A stretch of 64,000 bases of DNA from a virus. The translations under genes were made by a program, and so were the position numbers. The notes under the pieces were generated by a model that saw only the letters and a program-made list of their open reading frames with translations, did no database searches and was not told where the DNA came from. The stretch lies in the IMG/VR virus record IMGVR_UViG_3300030380_006811, positions 32,001-96,000 of that record, one strand, 5' to 3'. This document shows positions 3,572 to 55,707 of this stretch, piece after piece (position 1 is the first letter of the stretch; each line of letters starts with the position of its first letter).

Positions 3572-5287
3572 ATGGAAAACAACGCATTACAAGTAGATTA
3601 TACAAATTGGGAAGCTGGAAAACAGTATCCTGAATGGATGGATGAAATTTCTTTAGCAACAGTATCAAAAGGATACTTATTGCCTGGGGAAACAGTAAAA
3701 ACAGCTTATAGGAGAGTAGCAACTGCAGCAGCTAATAGATTAAAAAAACCAGAATTAACAAATAAATTTTTTAAATTATTTTGGAATGGGTGGGTTGGAT
3801 TAGCATCTCCTGTATTATCAAATATGGGAACTGACCGTGGTTTACCTATTTCTTGTTTCGGCATTGATACACCTGATTCTATACGTGGAATTGGTTTAAC
3901 TAACGCGGAACTAATGAAATTAACAGCATCTGGTGGAGGTGTAGGTATATCATTATCACGCATTAGAAAACGAGGAACAAGTATATCAGGTAATGGTAAA
4001 AGTGAAGGTGTAGTTCCTTGGGCTAAGATTTATGATTCAGCTATTATCGCTACTAACCAAGGTAATGTTCGTAGAGGAGCTGCTTCAGTAAATTTAGATA
4101 TTAATCATGGTGATATTGATGAATTTTTGCAAATTAGAAGACCTAAAGGAGACCCGAATAGACAATGTTTAAATCTACATCAGTGTGTAGTAGTTGATGA
4201 TTTTTTTATGCGTAAATTAGAAGCAAGAGATCCTGAAGCATTAAATACATGGGCAACTATTTTAAAAGCAAGAATGGAAACAGGTGAACCTTATGTAATG
4301 TATAAAGATAATGTTAATAAAGATAATCCTATTGCCTATAGATTAAATAACTTAGATGTAACAATGACAAATATATGTTCAGAAATTACATTATTTACAG
4401 ATGAAGAACACTCATTTATTTGTTGTTTATCTTCTATGAATTTAGCTAAATATGATGAATGGAAAGATACAGACTCAGTAGAGTTAGCTACTTGGTTTTT
4501 AGATGGAGTAATGCAAGAATTTATTGATAAATCGTCTGGTAGGGAATCATTAAAAAGGACCCACAAACATGCTTCTAAAGGTAGAGCATTAGGGTTAGGA
4601 GTAATGGGGTGGCATACATTTTTACAACAAAAAGGATTACCATTTAATTCAATATCCTCTACTGCTCATACACATAATATTTTTAGTAATATTAGAAATA
4701 AAGCAGAAAAAGCATCAATGGAATTAGCTCAAGAATATGGAGAACCACTTTGGTGTAGAGGTACAGGAATGAGAAATACACATTTATTAGCTATAGCCCC
4801 TACAGTATCAAATTCTGTAATTACAGGTGGTATTTCTGCGGGTATTGAACCTCTTCCTGCTAATGTATATACTTTTAATGGTGCTAAAGGTACTTTTATT
4901 AGAAAAAATAAAGTATTACAAAACTTATTACAAGGAAAAAAAGAGGATAAAAATAAATGGTGGGACCAAATGTTGCAAGATGGAGGATCAGCACAAAATC
5001 TTCCAGATACTGTATTAAGTCCCGATGAAAAAGAATTATTTTTAACATTTTCTGAGATAAATCAATTGGAACTTGTGCGCCAAGCTGCAATAAGACAAAA
5101 ATATATTGATCAAACCCAATCTCTGAATTTGTCATTTGATCCTAATGATTCGCCAAAATGGATAAATCAAGTTCATATGGAAGCATGGAAACTTGGGATA
5201 AAAACATTATATTACCTAAGAACTGATAGTGTGATAAAGGGTGATCTTGGCTCAAGAATGGCAGATTGTGTATCTTGTGATGGATAA
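3572..5287 (+). CDS. nrdA: Ribonucleotide reductase class I alpha subunit (no ATP cone)
   Basis: ISCF, TNICSEI, CCLSS, LAIAPT, TLYYLR, C-terminal CVSC. Confidence 0.95.
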   Translation: MENNALQVDYTNWEAGKQYPEWMDEISLATVSKGYLLPGETVKTAYRRVATAAANRLKKPELTNKFFKLFWNGWVGLASPVLSNMGTDRGLPISCFGIDTPDSIRGIGLTNAELMKLTASGGGVGISLSRIRKRGTSISGNGKSEGVVPWAKIYDSAIIATNQGNVRRGAASVNLDINHGDIDEFLQIRRPKGDPNRQCLNLHQCVVVDDFFMRKLEARDPEALNTWATILKARMETGEPYVMYKDNVNKDNPIAYRLNNLDVTMTNICSEITLFTDEEHSFICCLSSMNLAKYDEWKDTDSVELATWFLDGVMQEFIDKSSGRESLKRTHKHASKGRALGLGVMGWHTFLQQKGLPFNSISSTAHTHNIFSNIRNKAEKASMELAQEYGEPLWCRGTGMRNTHLLAIAPTVSNSVITGGISAGIEPLPANVYTFNGAKGTFIRKNKVLQNLLQGKKEDKNKWWDQMLQDGGSAQNLPDTVLSPDEKELFLTFSEINQLELVRQAAIRQKYIDQTQSLNLSFDPNDSPKWINQVHMEAWKLGIKTLYYLRTDSVIKGDLGSRMADCVSCDG

Positions 5288-44398: not shown

Positions 44399-45664
44399 AT
44401 GAAAGAACTACACACATTTATAGAAGAAATGAGAGCTACAAGTAGTAGCACTGATAAAGTACAAATAATTAAGGAAGCAAGTCCATTTGTACATAAAGCA
44501 TTAGAGTATACTTATAATCCGTTTAAGCAATTCTATGTTACAAGTAAAACCTGTAAGAAAAACCCACATTTATTTGGGGGTGATGCCATTGATTGTTTTG
44601 AGATATTAGATAAATTAATGAATAGGGAAGTTACTGGGCATGATGCTATTAAATTAGTTAACACTTATGCTAACCTAAAAGGTTATAAAGATTTAATTTA
44701 TAAAATTATAGATAAAAATTTAGATATTAGAGCTGGGGATAAAGTTATTAATAAAGCAATTCCCAATTTAATACCAACATTTTCAGTTGCATTAGCTAAA
44801 GAATATGATGGTAAATGTGATTGGCAAAATGATACTTGGTGGGCATCAAGAAAATTAGATGGTGTTAGATGTTTGGCAGTAGTTAATTATGAAGGTGAAT
44901 GTACACTTTATTCTAGAATGGGTAAAGAATTAACTACACTAAATAAGGTTAAAGAAGCGATTGAAGCAACAGGTATTATTAATACTGTATTTGATGGTGA
45001 AATTTGTTTAATTGATGAAAATGGAAATGAAGATTTTCAAGGTGTAATGAAACAATTAAGACGTAAAGATCACCAAATTGAAAATCCTGCTTATATGATA
45101 TTTGATATGATTCATAAACCTAATTTTGATAACCAAAAAGGAGGTCCTATATTAAGTGAAAGATTAGCAGCATTAAGAGGATTTTTAACAGGTAGATATA
45201 TTACAACTAATATTTTACGTTATACAGATCAATTCCAAATAACAGATGGTAGACACTTTGATAAATGGGGTCAAATAGCAACTGATAATAATTGGGAAGG
45301 ATTTATGATACGTAAAGATGTTAGTTATGAAGGTAAACGTACTAAAAATTTGCTTAAAGTAAAGAAATTTTATGATGCTGAATATGAAGTAATTGATTTT
45401 GATATTGATGATCACGAAGTAGTTAGAGATGGTAAATCTGAAACACTTAAAATGTTATCTCAAGTATGGATTGAACATAAGGGGCATAAAGTAAAAGTTG
45501 GTAGTGGTTGGACCCAAGATCAACGTTTACAGTATATGGATGGTTCAATTGTAGGTAAAGTAATTACTGTTCAATATTTTGAAGAAACTAAAAATGATAA
45601 AGGTGGAATTAGTTTAAGATTCCCAACTGTAAAAATAGTACATGGAGATAAGAGAGAAGTGTAG
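44399..45664 (+). CDS. ATP-dependent DNA ligase
   Basis: KLDGVR, FDGEI, EGFMIR, LLKVK, VGSG, SLRFP. Confidence 0.93.
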   Translation: MKELHTFIEEMRATSSSTDKVQIIKEASPFVHKALEYTYNPFKQFYVTSKTCKKNPHLFGGDAIDCFEILDKLMNREVTGHDAIKLVNTYANLKGYKDLIYKIIDKNLDIRAGDKVINKAIPNLIPTFSVALAKEYDGKCDWQNDTWWASRKLDGVRCLAVVNYEGECTLYSRMGKELTTLNKVKEAIEATGIINTVFDGEICLIDENGNEDFQGVMKQLRRKDHQIENPAYMIFDMIHKPNFDNQKGGPILSERLAALRGFLTGRYITTNILRYTDQFQITDGRHFDKWGQIATDNNWEGFMIRKDVSYEGKRTKNLLKVKKFYDAEYEVIDFDIDDHEVVRDGKSETLKMLSQVWIEHKGHKVKVGSGWTQDQRLQYMDGSIVGKVITVQYFEETKNDKGGISLRFPTVKIVHGDKREV

Positions 45665-46408: not shown

Positions 46409-46450
46409 CTTTTATATATTTATAACAAAATATTAATTAATAAATTTATT

Positions 46451-46729
46451 ATGTTAAAAATTATAGGTCTTATAGTAGTAGTTTTAGTAATAGGAGCAGC
46501 CGTTTATTATTTCGGTTTCTATAAAAGAGGCAAAATTAATGATAGAGATGGAGATTTAATACCTGATGAGGTTGAAGATGCAGTTGAAGAAGCTAAAAAG
46601 AGAGTACAATCAGTAAAAGTAGAAGCTAAACAGGTTGGAAAAGCAGTAAAAGCAGCATCTAAAGAAATCAAAGATGTAGTTAAAGCAGCTAAAGGAAAAA
46701 AAAGAAGAGGTAGAAAACCTAAAAAATAA
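46451..46729 (+). CDS. Membrane-anchored basic protein with RGRKP tail
   Basis: TM, DRDGD.IPD, basic C-terminus; ATATTTAT upstream. Confidence 0.65.
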   Translation: MLKIIGLIVVVLVIGAAVYYFGFYKRGKINDRDGDLIPDEVEDAVEEAKKRVQSVKVEAKQVGKAVKAASKEIKDVVKAAKGKKRRGRKPKK

Positions 46730-46732
46730 AAT

Positions 46733-47815
46733 ATGAGTAAATATAACTTATCAGAATTACTTACTGAAGTAGCAGGAGGTAGAATTGGAACATTAGAAAT
46801 TTCGGCTAGAGATTTAGTTCGTAAAATGGAAGATCTTGAAGATAAAGGTGTTCGAGTAGAACGTTTTGATGGTCTTTCTCCTGATGGTAAAACATATATT
46901 GAATTCCATGTTCACCCAATAAGAAAATATGATGAAGATTATTCATTTTCAGTTTACGACTTTAAATTTGGATTTGATCCTATGAGCCCAGAACATTCTG
47001 ATCAAGAATACCCATTTAGTGTAGGTGGTAGATCATCAGCACGTGATAGTGCAGAAACAACACTTAGAGGAGGAGATATGGGGTTTGAGCTTAAAGAAGC
47101 TAAAGAAGAACCTAGAGATGGAGTTAAAAGTGCTGCAGCTAAACTAGGAATGAAACCAAGTCATGTAAAAGAAAACATGTCTAAAAAAGATACATTAAAG
47201 AAAGAAATGATGATTCATGTTGACCAATTAATAGATGGTAACATAGACATGAACGACTTTATGAATGTAGTAGAAGATATAATGGATGAATTAAATCCAG
47301 GGGATGATTTCGAACAAGAAGAATTTACAGCTATCCCTGAAGAAGATTCAATGAAAGAAGATTTAGATGATTTGAATGATGACGAATATGATGATGGTCC
47401 TGATGGTAAATTTGTTAACGAACTAGATAATACTTTAAATGTTGATAAAGTTGCCTCACCAGATGCTAAAGCACATGATTACGGAGCTGAAATTAAAGGT
47501 ATATCTGATGAAGATGATACTGAAGAAAAGTATGCTCATGGGATGGTATTACCATTAGAAGAAGATTCAATTGATGAAGCAGATAATATGGAAGTTGTTG
47601 CGTTATTAAATAATATAAGAAAGCATTTAAATGATAAATTTGATCGCAAATATAGTAAATCAGAAATCGATTTATACATGGATTCTTTAAAAAGAGATAT
47701 TGAACGTGGTGAATTTGATGGTGTTGAATCTATTTCAATGGAAGACCATGAAGAGGATTTTGAAAATTACATTGCTGATAAATCATTACAAGAACATTTT
47801 AAAAGATTTTTATAA
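46733..47815 (+). CDS. Highly acidic protein, possible capsid-internal protein
   Basis: Asp/Glu-rich, many (L/I/V/M)xE sites, C-terminal LQEHFKRFL. Confidence 0.55.
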   Translation: MSKYNLSELLTEVAGGRIGTLEISARDLVRKMEDLEDKGVRVERFDGLSPDGKTYIEFHVHPIRKYDEDYSFSVYDFKFGFDPMSPEHSDQEYPFSVGGRSSARDSAETTLRGGDMGFELKEAKEEPRDGVKSAAAKLGMKPSHVKENMSKKDTLKKEMMIHVDQLIDGNIDMNDFMNVVEDIMDELNPGDDFEQEEFTAIPEEDSMKEDLDDLNDDEYDDGPDGKFVNELDNTLNVDKVASPDAKAHDYGAEIKGISDEDDTEEKYAHGMVLPLEEDSIDEADNMEVVALLNNIRKHLNDKFDRKYSKSEIDLYMDSLKRDIERGEFDGVESISMEDHEEDFENYIADKSLQEHFKRFL

Positions 47816-47828
47816 TAAAATCTATTTT

Positions 47829-48055
47829 GCCCGCTTTTCCGGGCCTGTAAAGTGGGCGTTATGCGGAGATTATTGCACGCCCTTGAAAAATGCTAGATTA
47901 AAACTCTTCACCCATATTTATGGTTGATTTGTTTTTTTCAAACATTTTTCAAAAGGTTACTTGCTGTCAGTTAGGCTGAGTCCGTGTTTAATTGGCATGG
48001 GACCTTGAGTAACCCCAGTGTTGACAGCGCTTAGGACGCCTACAAATACAGGCCC
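47829..48055 (+). ncRNA. Candidate structured, pseudoknotted ncRNA
   Basis: Intergenic GC-richer island with at least six complementary segment pairs, two interleaved; followed by a terminator. Confidence 0.7.
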
Positions 48056-48062
48056 TCAAATA

Positions 48063-48091
48063 CAGAAAGGAACCTCACGGTTCCTTTTCTG
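48063..48091 (+). terminator. Rho-independent terminator (possibly bidirectional)
   Basis: CAGAAAGGAACC-tcac-GGTTCCTTTTCTG. Confidence 0.75.
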
Positions 48092-48151
48092 ATTCTAAAA
48101 TTTGTATTTTTATTAGTTGTATATATTTATTATTGTATTTACCCAAATCTT

Positions 48152-48496
48152 ATGAAAATAGATATAATTGGTTTTAGATTACCAACGGCTACCCCTGATC
48201 CTACAAGACATCCTTCTTGTGGTTGGGTTGCTATCTGTAATGATAAAGAAATTGGTTGGTGTAATATGACCTTCTTACCTAATAATGTATTAAAACTTGA
48301 AGATGCATTTATACATCCAGACTATAGAGGTAAAGGAATATATAAACAATTATGGAATAAACGTTATGATTATATTCAGGAGCACTTTAGTAATTACAAA
48401 TTAATAGCTTACTGTAAACCAACTACACTAGAATTTTATAAAAAACAGGGGTTTATTGTAAAAGAAACTATAACTCTTGTTGAGAAGCCCGCGTAA
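48152..48496 (+). CDS. GNAT acetyltransferase
   Basis: IHPDYRGKGI, FYKKQGF. Confidence 0.85.
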   Translation: MKIDIIGFRLPTATPDPTRHPSCGWVAICNDKEIGWCNMTFLPNNVLKLEDAFIHPDYRGKGIYKQLWNKRYDYIQEHFSNYKLIAYCKPTTLEFYKKQGFIVKETITLVEKPA

Positions 48497-48569: not shown

Positions 48570-49373
48570 ATGTCAAATATAGTAAAAATAAAAAGAGGTC
48601 GTCCAAGTAAAAAAGTTGGTAAAATTGTAAAAAGATTTAAGCCAACTACTATGAAAATGGATGATTTTAAATTCGATCCCCAATTATTCATTCCTATGAA
48701 AACAGGTACTAAAATTGATAATTTACTTTCAAGTGAAGGTGGAATGATGAAAGGTACTAATGTTGCATTTGTAGGAGATCCTGGTGTTGGTAAAACTACG
48801 GTTTTATTAGATATGCTTGCTAATATGCAGAATAATGGTAATAAAGTATTATTTATATCAGGTGAGATGACTCAGATTGATATGGTAGGAATGGTTAAAA
48901 GATTTCCTAAATTTGGTCAATTACCTATTTTATTTATGGGTGATTTTATTGAAAATGATCCACTTGTTATTTTGAAATCTATTCTTCATGAAGGATGGGA
49001 TTCAGTTCTTGTAGATTCATTTGCTGAGCTTGCAGTTGCTGTTCAAGATTTTCATGGTGGTACTATGAAAAACGCTGAAACTCAATTACTAAATTTATTT
49101 GAAAAACATAATAAAGCTGAAAATCAAAGTGGTAAAAATACTAACTTTATGATCATTCAGCAGGTTACTAAAGGTGGTGAGTTTGCTGGTAGTAACCGAT
49201 TTAAACACATGATTACCGCAATGGCTCATATTAAATTTCAACCTGAAGGTGGTAGAGCTATTTGGTTTAGTAAAAACCGAAGAGGTGGTGAAATGAATAA
49301 ATTATTCTTTAGTTTAGATGCTAGAAATCACGTAGGATGGTTATTCACCCAGCCATTAAATTTAATGGGATAA
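48570..49373 (+). CDS. RadA/Sms-like RecA-family ATPase
   Basis: GDPGVGKT, ISGE, VDS, TKGG.FAG....KH, KNR. Confidence 0.85.
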   Translation: MSNIVKIKRGRPSKKVGKIVKRFKPTTMKMDDFKFDPQLFIPMKTGTKIDNLLSSEGGMMKGTNVAFVGDPGVGKTTVLLDMLANMQNNGNKVLFISGEMTQIDMVGMVKRFPKFGQLPILFMGDFIENDPLVILKSILHEGWDSVLVDSFAELAVAVQDFHGGTMKNAETQLLNLFEKHNKAENQSGKNTNFMIIQQVTKGGEFAGSNRFKHMITAMAHIKFQPEGGRAIWFSKNRRGGEMNKLFFSLDARNHVGWLFTQPLNLMG

Positions 49374-55128: not shown

Positions 55129-55423
55129 ATATGAGCAAAACATTTAAATTAAAGTACACTGAATTAATAGGTGAGGATCAAGAACGTGATGGGGAAATGA
55201 TCATTAAAACAAAAAATATACAATGGACTATGGAGCAGTTCTGTAGAAATAGACATGTAATAAAAATGGATTGGAAACAAATTAAACATTAAATAATATG
55301 AGTAAAAATAGTCATAAACAAATGTACGAGCAATTGGTACAATGGTTACCTACGTTGAGTAGCAAACGTAAAAAACGTGTTAAATCAAGGAATACTGGGC
55401 AACGCAAAGCGTATAATCGCTAA

Positions 55424-55504
55424 GTGTGACAATCATATTCTAAAGTGTGACATACGAATATAGTAATATTCAAATGTACATAAATTTAGATATAATGTGT
55501 GACA
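55424..55504 (+). repeat. Three direct GTGTGACA repeats in a non-coding gap
   Basis: At 55424, 55445, 55497. Confidence 0.7.
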
Positions 55505-55707
55505 AAAAATGGTGGTGTTACGTGAACTAAAAACGAGGGGGTATTAACCCCTGTGCATCGCAAGCCAACCTATTTCGACTCGACGAGTATATATTTGTGA
55601 ACAATGCAATGTTCATAGGTGATCATAACGTTTCACTTGAGGATACGTCAATAAAACATTAGATACGTTGTGAATACAACAATAATAATAAAATAATGAC
55701 GTAAACA

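What the first reader, a model, noticed from the sequence alone, without database searches (positions are those of the whole stretch)
47829..48091. Candidate novel multi-helix, pseudoknotted ncRNA (~260 nt) with alternative 5' fold
Seen in an otherwise AT-rich, gene-dense genome: closing helix GGGCCTGTA 47841-47849 / TACAGGCCC 48047-48055 (9 bp perfect); GGGCGT 47854-47859 / ACGCCC 47877-47882; TTGAAAAATG 47883-47892 / CATTTTTCAA 47943-47952 (10 bp perfect); interleaved GGTTACTT 47955-47962 / GAGTAACC 48007-48014 and GCTGTCAG 47963-47970 / TTGACAGC 48021-48028 (a pseudoknot); hairpin 47980-48003; possible third crossing TAGGC 47972-47976 / GCCTA 48038-48042; then a terminator. GCCCGCTTT 47829-47837 / AAAGTGGGC 47849-47857 competes with the second helix, like a switch. 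G-U pairs fit the + strand. I recognise no hammerhead, HDV, group I/II, tmRNA or RNase P consensus. It ends a late-type operon and contains an internal ATATTTAT (47914). Inference: a new ribozyme, scaffold or virion-associated RNA.
Basis: partly seen in the sequence, partly recalled or inferred. Interest (0 to 1): 0.88.

Follow-up and report, generated by a model that had tools for sequence, protein, structure and literature searches.

The report
Orphan folded RNA in marine phage
An uncultured marine phage carries, just behind one of its replication-region genes, a stretch of about 215 bases that folds tightly, turns up as RNA in seawater samples and fits no catalogued RNA family; no distant relatives were found, so its fold and its job remain untested.

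Summary
The stretch (GC 0.43 in a 0.31 genome) folds far better than shuffles: z = -5.8 on the + strand and -5.0 on the - strand. It matches no Rfam family, tRNA or tmRNA, and has no credible ORF.

Contigs from two metatranscriptomes of two studies lie within it. The natural variants I laid differ only at the tip of the AU-rich hairpin, where a 4-bp stem is replaced by an unrelated 7-bp stem.

The context claim is wrong. The element ends a small operon in the replication region (ligase, HNH, DnaB-like ATPase), not a late operon. It is a lineage-specific cassette: 0 of 16 distinct related phage loci carry it, and four of them have only an 85-86-nt terminator-promoter spacer at that site.

I found no diverged homologue in IMG/VR, JGI metagenome contigs, GTDB genomes or 151 Bacteroidia genomes. 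Covariation, the pseudoknot, the "switch" and any ribozyme activity are therefore untested or unsupported.

Best reading: a real, transcribed, orphan structured small RNA of unknown function. This scan has already reported several similar orphan phage RNAs on other DNA. Moderate interest.

The parts
46411..46423 (+). Promoter-like motif TTTATATATTTAT, one mismatch to the motif in front of the GNAT gene. It is the likely start of the two-gene operon that the RNA ends (inferred).
   Evidence: The motif as a whole is not enriched in the window: 27 matches against a mean of 20.3 in shuffles.
46451..47815 (+). Operon body: a 92-aa ORF (46451-46729) and a 360-aa ORF of unknown function (46733-47815). 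The RNA begins 14-26 nt after the stop codon of the second ORF.
   Evidence: no Pfam, PHROG or PDB assignment. Homologues in L002, L025-L028 and L032 end with the same ...EHFKRF(M/L) C-terminus.
47829..47857 (+). 5' alternative hairpin GCCCGCUUU/AAAGUGGGC. It would sequester the 5' strands of P1 and P2. It may form transiently during transcription but is not populated at equilibrium.
   Evidence: Duplex -13.2 kcal/mol; pair probability 0.000.
47841..48055 (+). Core of the structured RNA (215 nt), closed by P1 (47841-49/48047-55) and P2 (47852-60/48035-43). Its GC is 0.43.
   Evidence: pair probabilities P1 0.99 and P2 0.96.
47861..47882 (+). Junction segment between P2 and P3, weakly paired in the MFE. 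It contains ACGCCC, which can alternatively pair with GGGCGU 47854-59.
   Evidence: alternative pairing probability 0.005.
47883..47952 (+). P3, an AU-rich 70-nt hairpin. Its tip (47894-47924) is hypervariable in nature, while the lower stems are kept.
   Evidence: (probability 0.97); all differences of the X10 contig fall in 47894-47924 (7 substitutions and 10 inserted letters); the variant refolds with the same lower stems and a new 7-bp tip stem, -23.2 against -19.3 kcal/mol.
47955..48014 (+). P4 domain: stem 47955-62/48007-14 enclosing hairpin P4b (47981-88/47994-48001).
   Evidence: probabilities P4 0.70 and P4b 0.60.
47963..48028 (+). Candidate pseudoknot helix GCUGUCAG 47963-70 / UUGACAGC 48021-28, crossing P4.
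   Evidence: Duplex -12.4 kcal/mol. P4 with these strands left free gives -69.0, against the nested MFE of -77.6. P4 plus the knot (-81.4 before loop penalties) is therefore about equal in energy to the nested fold. No covariation test was possible.
48038..48065 (+). Tandem 14-nt direct repeat, GCCTACAAATACAG then GCCCTCAAATACAG (86% identical), spanning the 3' strands of P2 and P1 and the spacer before the terminator. Unexplained.
   Evidence: family D1.
48063..48091 (+). Terminator-like hairpin that belongs to the cassette. It differs from the terminator of the relatives.
   Evidence: (I10). Pair probability 0.62.
48118..48136 (+). Conserved promoter-like motif TGTATATATTTATTATTGT in front of the GNAT gene. 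It marks the 3' boundary of the variable cassette site.
   Evidence: the motif core is conserved in L025-L028 and L032.
48152..48496 (+). GNAT acetyltransferase gene, the downstream conserved flank.

Best explanation
The element is a genuine, transcribed, structured non-coding RNA of about 215 nt (47841-48055). It is carried as a lineage-specific accessory cassette (the RNA plus its own terminator hairpin). The cassette was inserted directly behind the stop codon of a conserved gene in the replication region of an uncultured, AT-rich marine phage of about 160 kb.

Shown:
- The helices exist and the stretch folds far better than chance.
- It does not code for protein and matches no catalogued RNA family.
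- It occurs in RNA libraries.
- Nature varies only the tip of one hairpin and keeps that tip a hairpin.
- Related phages lack the element at the same site.

Inferred:
- It has no promoter of its own. It is made as the 3' end of the orf92-orf360 transcript.
- It is then trimmed to a molecule whose 5' and 3' ends are locked together in the 18-bp P1/P2 stem, which would protect it from exonucleases.
- It acts in trans as a protein-binding or decoy RNA during infection rather than as an antisense regulator. I found no above-chance complementarity to the phage's own genome.
For: Structure: z = -5.79, with 0 of 200 shuffles as stable. There are 5 WC stems of 7 bp or more against a mean of 1.35; 11 of 1000 shuffles reach 5. 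Pair probabilities are P1 0.99, P2 0.96 and P3 0.97.

Composition: GC is 0.43 against 0.306 for the genome. A GC-rich island is the classic mark of an RNA gene in an AT-rich genome (established knowledge).

Non-coding: no ORF of 25 aa or more lies inside the element, apart from a spurious out-of-frame ORF running in from the upstream gene. The natural allele differs by a 10-nt insertion, which is not a multiple of three.

Strand: several G-U pairs occur in P2, P4, P4b and the knot, and the + strand MFE is 5 kcal/mol lower.

Expression: a 202-nt contig in the RNA library X10 covers 47864-48055. A 163-nt contig in the RNA library X13, from another study, covers 47891-48020 with adapter letters at both ends.

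Structure-preserving variation: in the X9 DNA and X10 RNA contigs the tip stem CCAU/AUGG is replaced by an unrelated 7-bp stem while the lower P3 stems are kept. X10 shows no other difference across 47864-48055. The X11 contig is identical over 47925-48041.

Cassette: no credible match to model R1 in any of the 9 loci found through the upstream protein or the 8 found through the GNAT gene (16 distinct contigs). None in the 5 whole related IMG/VR records either, apart from one 9-bit match at E = 0.26. L025-L028 have only an 85-86-nt terminator-promoter spacer at the site.

No own promoter: no sigma-70-like site on the + strand in 47600-48300. The phage's TATATATTTAT motif occurs at 46411 and 48118 but not in front of the RNA.

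No antisense target: complementary 11- to 13-mers to the rest of the genome are within the range of shuffles and all but one lie in the AU-rich hairpin; the exception is one 11-mer at 48038.
Against: No diverged homologue was found, so there is no covariation support for any helix except the swapped hairpin tip.

The minus strand folds almost as well (z = -4.98). Contigs cannot show strand, ends or level, and an RNA library can contain DNA (caveats).

With G-U pairs allowed, the count of long stems is not unusual (21% of shuffles).

Processing to a 215-nt end-paired molecule rests on a single contig end at 48055, which is only a weak hint.

A trans-acting protein-binding role is pure inference. 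No partner protein is linked, and both flanking genes occur without the RNA in relatives.

The low diversity could mean a recent insertion rather than selection.
Confidence: 0.5

Rival explanations
1. The element is a cis-acting 3'-end structure. A compact, knotted fold placed between the stop codon and the terminator blocks 3'-to-5' exonucleases and so stabilises the orf92-orf360 message. The RNA seen in libraries is merely the decay-resistant remnant and has no trans function.
For: It lies 14-26 nt after the stop codon and 7 nt before the terminator hairpin. No promoter of its own was found. Contigs from RNA libraries lie within the element.
Against: Relatives manage with a plain terminator at the same place. 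A 215-nt multi-domain fold with a hypervariable hairpin tip is far more than exonuclease protection needs. The RNA contig ends at 48055, before the terminator (weak hint).
Confidence: 0.2
2. The element acts at the DNA level: a replication origin or priming site, a recombination site, or the scar of a MITE-like insertion. Its transcript is incidental.
For: Both strands fold well. It has 9-bp perfect terminal inverted repeats, extendable to 12 of 14 (I4). An AT-rich core sits between GC-rich arms inside the replication gene region. There is a 14-nt tandem repeat at 48038-48065. It is present or absent among relatives like an insertion.
Against: There is one copy in the record and none elsewhere in IMG/VR, JGI contigs or GTDB genomes by six exact-word or gapped patterns (the two 20-mer hits are chance matches). 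I saw no target-site duplication around the inverted repeats. G-U pairs favour RNA on the + strand. No iteron array is present. Cumulative GC skew does not turn here.
Confidence: 0.12
3. The element is a selectively neutral or very recent insertion of foreign GC-richer sequence. It happens to fold and is transcribed by read-through.
For: It is an orphan: no credible homologue in 16 distinct related loci, 5 related records or 151 Bacteroidia genomes. There is almost no sequence diversity outside one hairpin tip.
Against: A z-score of -5.8 and five long WC stems are not expected of random inserted DNA. The tip was replaced by another hairpin rather than by random sequence. The element is held in laid runs of four studies.
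Confidence: 0.13
4. The element is a self-cleaving ribozyme, for example an HDV-like nested double pseudoknot formed by P4 and the crossing helix, that processes the transcript.
For: The strand order P4-5', knot-5', hairpin, P4-3', knot-3' resembles the P1/P2 interleaving of HDV-like ribozymes (the resemblance is recalled).
Against: No ribozyme family matches, even at E up to 10. There is no 3-bp P3 abutting the P1 3' strand. Only a 6-nt linker (48015-48020) stands where P4 and the J4/2 region with the catalytic C should be (inspection). RNA-library contigs run unbroken across 47954/47955 and every other internal position.
Confidence: 0.03

Closest known systems
T4 small stable RNAs RNAC and RNAD
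   Same: They are phage-encoded, discrete, structured small RNAs with no assigned function. Passages of PMC9697503 read call them 'RNAs of yet unknown functions' and report validation by Northern blot.
   Different: The T4 RNAs lie in the tRNA region and are tRNA-like (recalled). This record has no tRNA gene, and ARAGORN sees no tRNA-like domain in the element even at lowered thresholds. Sequence similarity could not be tested, because I held no T4 RNA sequence from a tool.
3'UTR-derived small RNAs of bacteria (e.g. CpxQ, SroC; recalled)
   Same: The element sits between a stop codon and the operon's terminator with no promoter of its own. It would be released from the mRNA by processing.
   Different: Those sRNAs are short, Hfq-dependent antisense regulators that keep the terminator as their 3' end. 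This one is a 215-nt multi-domain fold. I detected no antisense target in the phage, and the one RNA contig that reaches the 3' side stops before the terminator.
PeSL promoter/terminator cassettes of T4-type phages (PMC2839356, PMC4122927; search listing and start of abstracts only)
   Same: The RNA occupies a terminator-promoter joint where related phages swap content. Variants seen are a plain 85-nt spacer, a small minus-strand ORF, or this RNA.
   Different: PeSLs are repeated many times in a genome and are themselves the recombination substrate. Here the cargo, not the joint, is the finding, and the motif is not significantly repeated in the window.
Orphan ornate RNAs of phages and prophages (GOLLD, ROOL; Rfam)
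   Same: They are phage-borne, highly structured, GC-enriched, of unknown function, and were found first by computation.
   Different: There is no match to either family. This RNA is two to three times smaller, and unlike GOLLD and ROOL it has no known diverged relatives.
6S RNA
   Same: It is a stable RNA of about 200 nt whose ends pair in a long closing stem, and a decoy role is conceivable.
   Different: No 6S model matches at E up to 10. The predicted fold is a closing stem with two side-by-side domains, not a rod with a central bubble.

Membership tests
Any Rfam 15 family (4227 models) | Score at or above the family's gathering threshold | tested here: not met
   There were 0 matches in the window and 0 in the rest of the record. 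At E up to 10 over 47700-48200 there were only 14 sub-threshold hits to eukaryotic snoRNA, miRNA and AT-rich rRNA models, and 0 hits for 47950-48060.
tmRNA | tRNA-like domain formed by the paired ends, plus a tag reading frame | tested here: not met
   ARAGORN found none in the window, none in the rest of the record, and none at lowered thresholds on 47800-48120.
6S RNA | Rod-like fold with a large central bubble, and a match to the 6S models | tested here: not met
   No 6S model appears among the hits at E up to 10. The MFE is multi-branched.
HDV-like self-cleaving ribozyme | Nested double pseudoknot with a 7-bp P1, a 3-bp P3 abutting P1, a P1.1, and a catalytic C in J4/2 (features recalled) | tested here: not met
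   Only the P1/P2-like interleaving is present. No short P3 abuts the P1 3' strand, and only a 6-nt linker lies at 48015-48020. No HDV-type model hit was found. RNA contigs are unbroken across the expected cleavage site.
Y RNA / YrlA | Ro (TROVE) protein partner, and a tRNA-like module | tested here: not met
   No TROVE domain was found in the 119-kb record, while the control genomes rang; the record is only about 73% complete. There is no tRNA-like module and no Rfam hit.
Retron msr-msd RNA | Adjacent reverse transcriptase | tested here: not met
   No RVT_1 match in the record.
phi29-type packaging RNA (pRNA) | Match to the Rfam pRNA model, in a phi29-like small phage | tested here: not met
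   No Rfam match. The record is a 119-kb fragment of a larger phage.
MITE-like mobile element | Terminal inverted repeats, target-site duplication, and several copies | tested here: not met
   Inverted repeats are present: 9 bp perfect, 12 of 14 when extended. There is a single copy in the record and no other copy in three public collections (the two 20-mer hits are chance matches). I saw no flanking duplication.
3'UTR-derived sRNA | Co-transcribed with the upstream gene and released by processing | not testable with these tools
   The position and the lack of a promoter fit. Contigs cannot show 5' ends, 3' ends or strand.
PeSL-type exchangeable cassette site | Conserved terminator/promoter joint flanking variable cargo among related phages | tested here: inconclusive
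   Variable cargo between conserved flanks is shown. Repetition of the joint within this genome is not shown.

The most novel reading that the evidence does not exclude
The element founds a new class of phage small RNA. It would be an end-locked, pseudoknotted 215-nt molecule released from the 3' end of a replication-region message. Its conserved 3' domain (P4, the knot and P2/P1) would bind and neutralise a host protein such as a defence or RNA-decay factor. Its hypervariable hairpin tip would be the allele-specific face of an arms race.
Probability: 0.15. Interest if true: 0.7.

Novelty: new variant of a known kind. Interest (0 to 1): 0.45.

Why it matters
Phage-encoded structured RNAs of unknown function are turning up often, and this scan has already logged several on other DNA. 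Almost none has a mechanism. This one is small enough (215 nt) for probing, mutate-and-rescue tests of a pseudoknot, and pull-downs. It also comes with a natural presence/absence polymorphism at a fixed site and a natural hairpin-tip swap, which are useful handles. If it binds a host factor, it would add an RNA-based accessory function to marine phage biology. If not, it is one more orphan. Until relatives are found or the RNA is probed, it cannot answer any long-standing question.

Tried and rejected
Homologue hunting found nothing usable.
- blastn (distant mode) against 50,697 phage records: no match.
- Exact or gapped words in IMG/VR: the 16-mer gave 8 hits, all chance, with no extension beyond 20 nt. 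The 18-, 21- and 20-mers gave 0 hits.
- JGI metagenome contigs: the gapped P4/knot pattern gave 0 hits. The 5' 20-mer gave 1 hit, L023, a high-GC contig with 36 nt at 89% identity in front of an unrelated gene.
- GTDB genome contigs: the 22-mer gave 0 hits. The 20-mer gave 1 hit inside a membrane-protein ORF of a Muribaculaceae MAG.
- One hit per collection is about what a 20-mer gives by chance, so I rejected both hits as homologues.
- Model R1, built from the single sequence, found only itself among 15 sources. It found nothing credible in 5 related IMG/VR records, where the best hit was E = 0.26 and 9 bits. It found nothing in L025-L032. In 151 Bacteroidia genomes it gave one hit at E = 0.08 to the AU hairpin part only. 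Bacteroidia was chosen only because a handle was at hand and another first-reader note guessed Bacteroidota; the host is unknown.

Other negative or unusable results.
- Ro/TROVE and reverse transcriptase: absent from the record.
- Antisense targets in the phage genome: none above the shuffles.
- The upstream 360-aa protein stays unassigned: PDB best E = 0.41, Atlas scores under 0.9.
- A coarse z-score scan of 21 intergenic gaps cut the element's closing stem (z = -3.47) and put 55332-55551 slightly ahead (z = -3.76). It does not show the element to be unique.

Read-laying caveats.
- In X10 and X13 the flanks 47500-47840 and 48058-48400 have no cover.
- The X10 contig end at 48055 is a single weak hint of a 3' end.
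- Runs with small shares that I did not lay (X12, X14-X20) are no evidence of habitat or expression.
- X1-X7 may be the source of this DNA and are not independent.
- No head-to-tail or other joint was reported inside the element.

Literature.
- I read the outline and abstract of PMC10690425, which reports 10,006 candidate structured RNAs from IMG/VR. Its supplementary lists are closed, so I could not check whether this locus is among them.
- Two full-text searches turned up no description of this RNA. That is not proof that it is unpublished.

Full report
WHAT IS THERE

The window is bases 32001-96000 of a 119-kb IMG/VR virus record, estimated 73% complete, with GC 0.306. The finding lies in the 336-nt gap between the stop codon of a 360-aa ORF of unknown function (46733-47815) and a GNAT acetyltransferase gene (48152-48496). 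All genes here run on the + strand.

The neighbours are an ATP-dependent DNA ligase (44399-45664), an HNH nuclease, two small unknown ORFs and a DnaB/RecA-like ATPase (48570-49373).

P2 stacks on the 9-bp closing helix P1 (-16.4) and is part of the minimum-free-energy fold.

The fold consists of:
- the P1/P2 closing stem;
- a 22-nt junction;
- the 70-nt AU-rich hairpin P3 (47883-47952);
- the P4 domain (47955-62/48007-14) enclosing hairpin P4b.

The 8-bp helix 47963-70/48021-28 crosses P4.

Evidence that this is more than chance:
- The + strand of 47820-48095 folds at -94.7 kcal/mol, z = -5.79, with 0 of 200 dinucleotide shuffles as stable.
- Watson-Crick-only stems of 7 bp or more number 5, against a mean of 1.35 in shuffles; 11 of 1000 shuffles reach 5.

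Evidence against:
- With G-U pairs allowed, stems of 8 bp or more are not unusual: 13 against a mean of 10.1, reached by 21% of 300 shuffles.
- The minus strand also folds well (z = -4.98).

Pair probabilities in the nested ensemble are P1 0.99, P2 0.96, P3 0.97, P4 0.70 and P4b 0.60. The 5' alternative hairpin (0.000), the local GGGCGU/ACGCCC hairpin (0.005) and the 'third crossing' (0.000) are not populated. The 'switch' therefore has no thermodynamic support, though a transient co-transcriptional role cannot be excluded.

The pseudoknot is energetically plausible. P4 with the knot strands left free gives -69.0 kcal/mol and the knot duplex adds about -12.4, against -77.6 for the best nested fold. 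It remains undemonstrated.

WHAT IT IS NOT

- No Rfam family reaches threshold in the window or in the rest of the record. At E up to 10 only noise appears, and the 3' domain alone gives nothing.
- There is no tRNA or tmRNA, even at lowered ARAGORN thresholds.
- There is no credible ORF.
- The record has no Ro/TROVE and no reverse transcriptase.
- By inspection the HDV-like features (recalled) are not met.

EXPRESSION AND NATURAL VARIATION

The word index lists 20 public marine runs from 12 studies that hold the stretch or part of it. Seven of these runs may be the source sample. I laid four runs from four studies.

- The RNA library X10 holds a 202-nt contig covering 47864-48055.
- The RNA library X13, from a different study, holds a 163-nt contig covering 47891-48020, with adapter letters at both ends.
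- The DNA runs X9 and X11 hold it too.

All 7 substitutions and all 10 inserted letters of the X10 contig fall in 47894-47924, the tip of P3. The X11 contig is identical over 47925-48041.

I rebuilt the X9/X10 allele in a script. The lower P3 stems are kept, and the 4-bp tip stem is replaced by an unrelated 7-bp stem; the hairpin goes from -19.3 to -23.2 kcal/mol. This is the only structure-preserving change available. The 10-nt indel argues against coding.

Contigs cannot show strand, ends or level, and an RNA library may hold DNA. Expression is therefore indicated, not proven.

A LINEAGE-SPECIFIC CASSETTE

Related contigs in X9 and X11 diverge from the window at 47820/47826 and again at 48100/48101. 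One contig replaces 47764-48167 with 188 other letters.

In IMG/VR, 9 loci found through the upstream protein and 8 found through the GNAT gene (16 distinct contigs, since L002 and L032 are one contig) give no credible match to the covariance model. Nor do 5 whole related records.

Four loci (L025-L028) have the same upstream gene, ending ...EHFKRFM. It is followed by only 85-86 nt: a different terminator, then the conserved TGTATATATTTAT motif and the GNAT gene. L031 and L032 carry a small minus-strand ORF at that site instead.

So the RNA and its own terminator hairpin form an accessory cargo inserted at a terminator-promoter joint that swaps content among relatives. This is the behaviour described for PeSL cassettes of T4-type phages (PMC2839356 and PMC4122927, seen as search listing only) and noted by this scan in related marine phages (e1-5680309).

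NO DISTANT RELATIVES

Six exact or gapped word patterns across IMG/VR, JGI metagenome contigs and GTDB genome contigs found nothing. The two single 20-mer hits turned out to be chance matches. Model R1 found nothing credible in 151 Bacteroidia genomes. Covariation therefore could not be tested.

HOW IT MOST LIKELY WORKS

No promoter-like site precedes the RNA on the + strand. The phage's TATATATTTAT motif occurs at 46411 and 48118 but not at the RNA.

I therefore infer that the RNA is made as the tail of the orf92-orf360 message and ends at its own hairpin (48063-48091). It may then be trimmed back to the P1/P2 stem; the X10 contig stops at 48055, which is only a weak hint.

A molecule whose two ends are locked in 18 bp is built like the stable RNAs that work by binding proteins. 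I found no above-chance complementarity to the phage genome. I therefore favour a trans-acting protein-binding or decoy role over antisense regulation. The step from 'stable folded RNA' to 'decoy' is inference only.

The rivals are:
- a cis-acting 3'-end protector of the message;
- a DNA-level element or MITE-like scar;
- a neutral recent insertion;
- a ribozyme, which is least likely.

COMPARISON AND VERDICT

The closest known things are of the same kind rather than the same family:
- T4 RNAC and RNAD, still 'of yet unknown functions' (PMC9697503, passages read);
- 3'UTR-derived sRNAs;
- the orphan ornate RNAs GOLLD and ROOL.

The element belongs to none of the families tested. This scan has already followed up several comparable orphan phage RNAs on other DNA, so the kind is no longer surprising.

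The finding is real and worth a wet-lab look because it is small and has natural alleles. Without relatives or probing it stays an orphan. Interest 0.45.

Noticed in passing
window 48038-48065: There is a tandem 14-nt direct repeat, GCCTACAAATACAG then GCCCTCAAATACAG, spanning the 3' strands of P2 and P1 and running into the spacer before the terminator. It could be a duplication left by the insertion or a protein-binding pair. It is unexplained.
   Followed up: no
window 48118-48136; L025 2487-2505 and the equivalent sites in L026-L028 and L032: The motif TGTATATATTTAT(TATTGT), about 16-30 nt before the GNAT start codon, has its 13-nt core conserved across phages whose GNAT proteins are only 63-83% identical. 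One-mismatch copies lie before other genes at 46411 and 57989. It is probably this phage group's promoter, although the 13-mer is not enriched in the window as a whole.
   Followed up: partly
L031 2150-2400 and L032 (= L002) 4315-4542, minus strand: At the site where this phage has the RNA, two relatives carry a small minus-strand ORF (75 aa in L002) instead. The joint therefore accepts different cargo in either orientation.
   Followed up: partly
L025-L028 and L032, first 15 nt after the stop codon of the orf360 homologue: A conserved non-coding word, GCAGGT(G/A)CACATTT, directly follows the stop codon in five relatives and is missing in the window. MAFFT aligns it loosely with ACAGGCCCTCAAAT at the 3' end of the RNA.
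   Followed up: no
L023 730-763 (minus strand): A high-GC metagenome contig shares 36 nt at 89% identity with 47833-47867 (the 5' strands of P1 and P2). The shared stretch lies just ahead of a Shine-Dalgarno sequence and a gene with a GESGERKSS P-loop-like motif. I judged it chance (about one 20-mer hit is expected), but the match extends beyond the seed.
   Followed up: partly
window 55332-55551: This intergenic stretch had the lowest z-score (-3.76) in a coarse 220-nt scan of the record's gaps. It lies in the palindrome-rich zone that other first-reader notes flag as a possible origin or genome end.
   Followed up: no
L022 1328-3075 (record 117328-119075, beyond the window): The last 1.7 kb of the record has GC 0.41 and no ATG-started ORF of 70 aa or more. 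It has no Rfam or tRNA match. It may be a gene running off the contig end or another non-coding region.
   Followed up: partly
window 46733-47815: The 360-aa protein is very acidic. Residues 150-188 form a short core, around the YDFKFGFD word, that is 87-92% identical in four otherwise divergent IMG/VR contigs (56-71% over longer spans in two more). It has no Pfam, PHROG or PDB assignment.
   Followed up: partly
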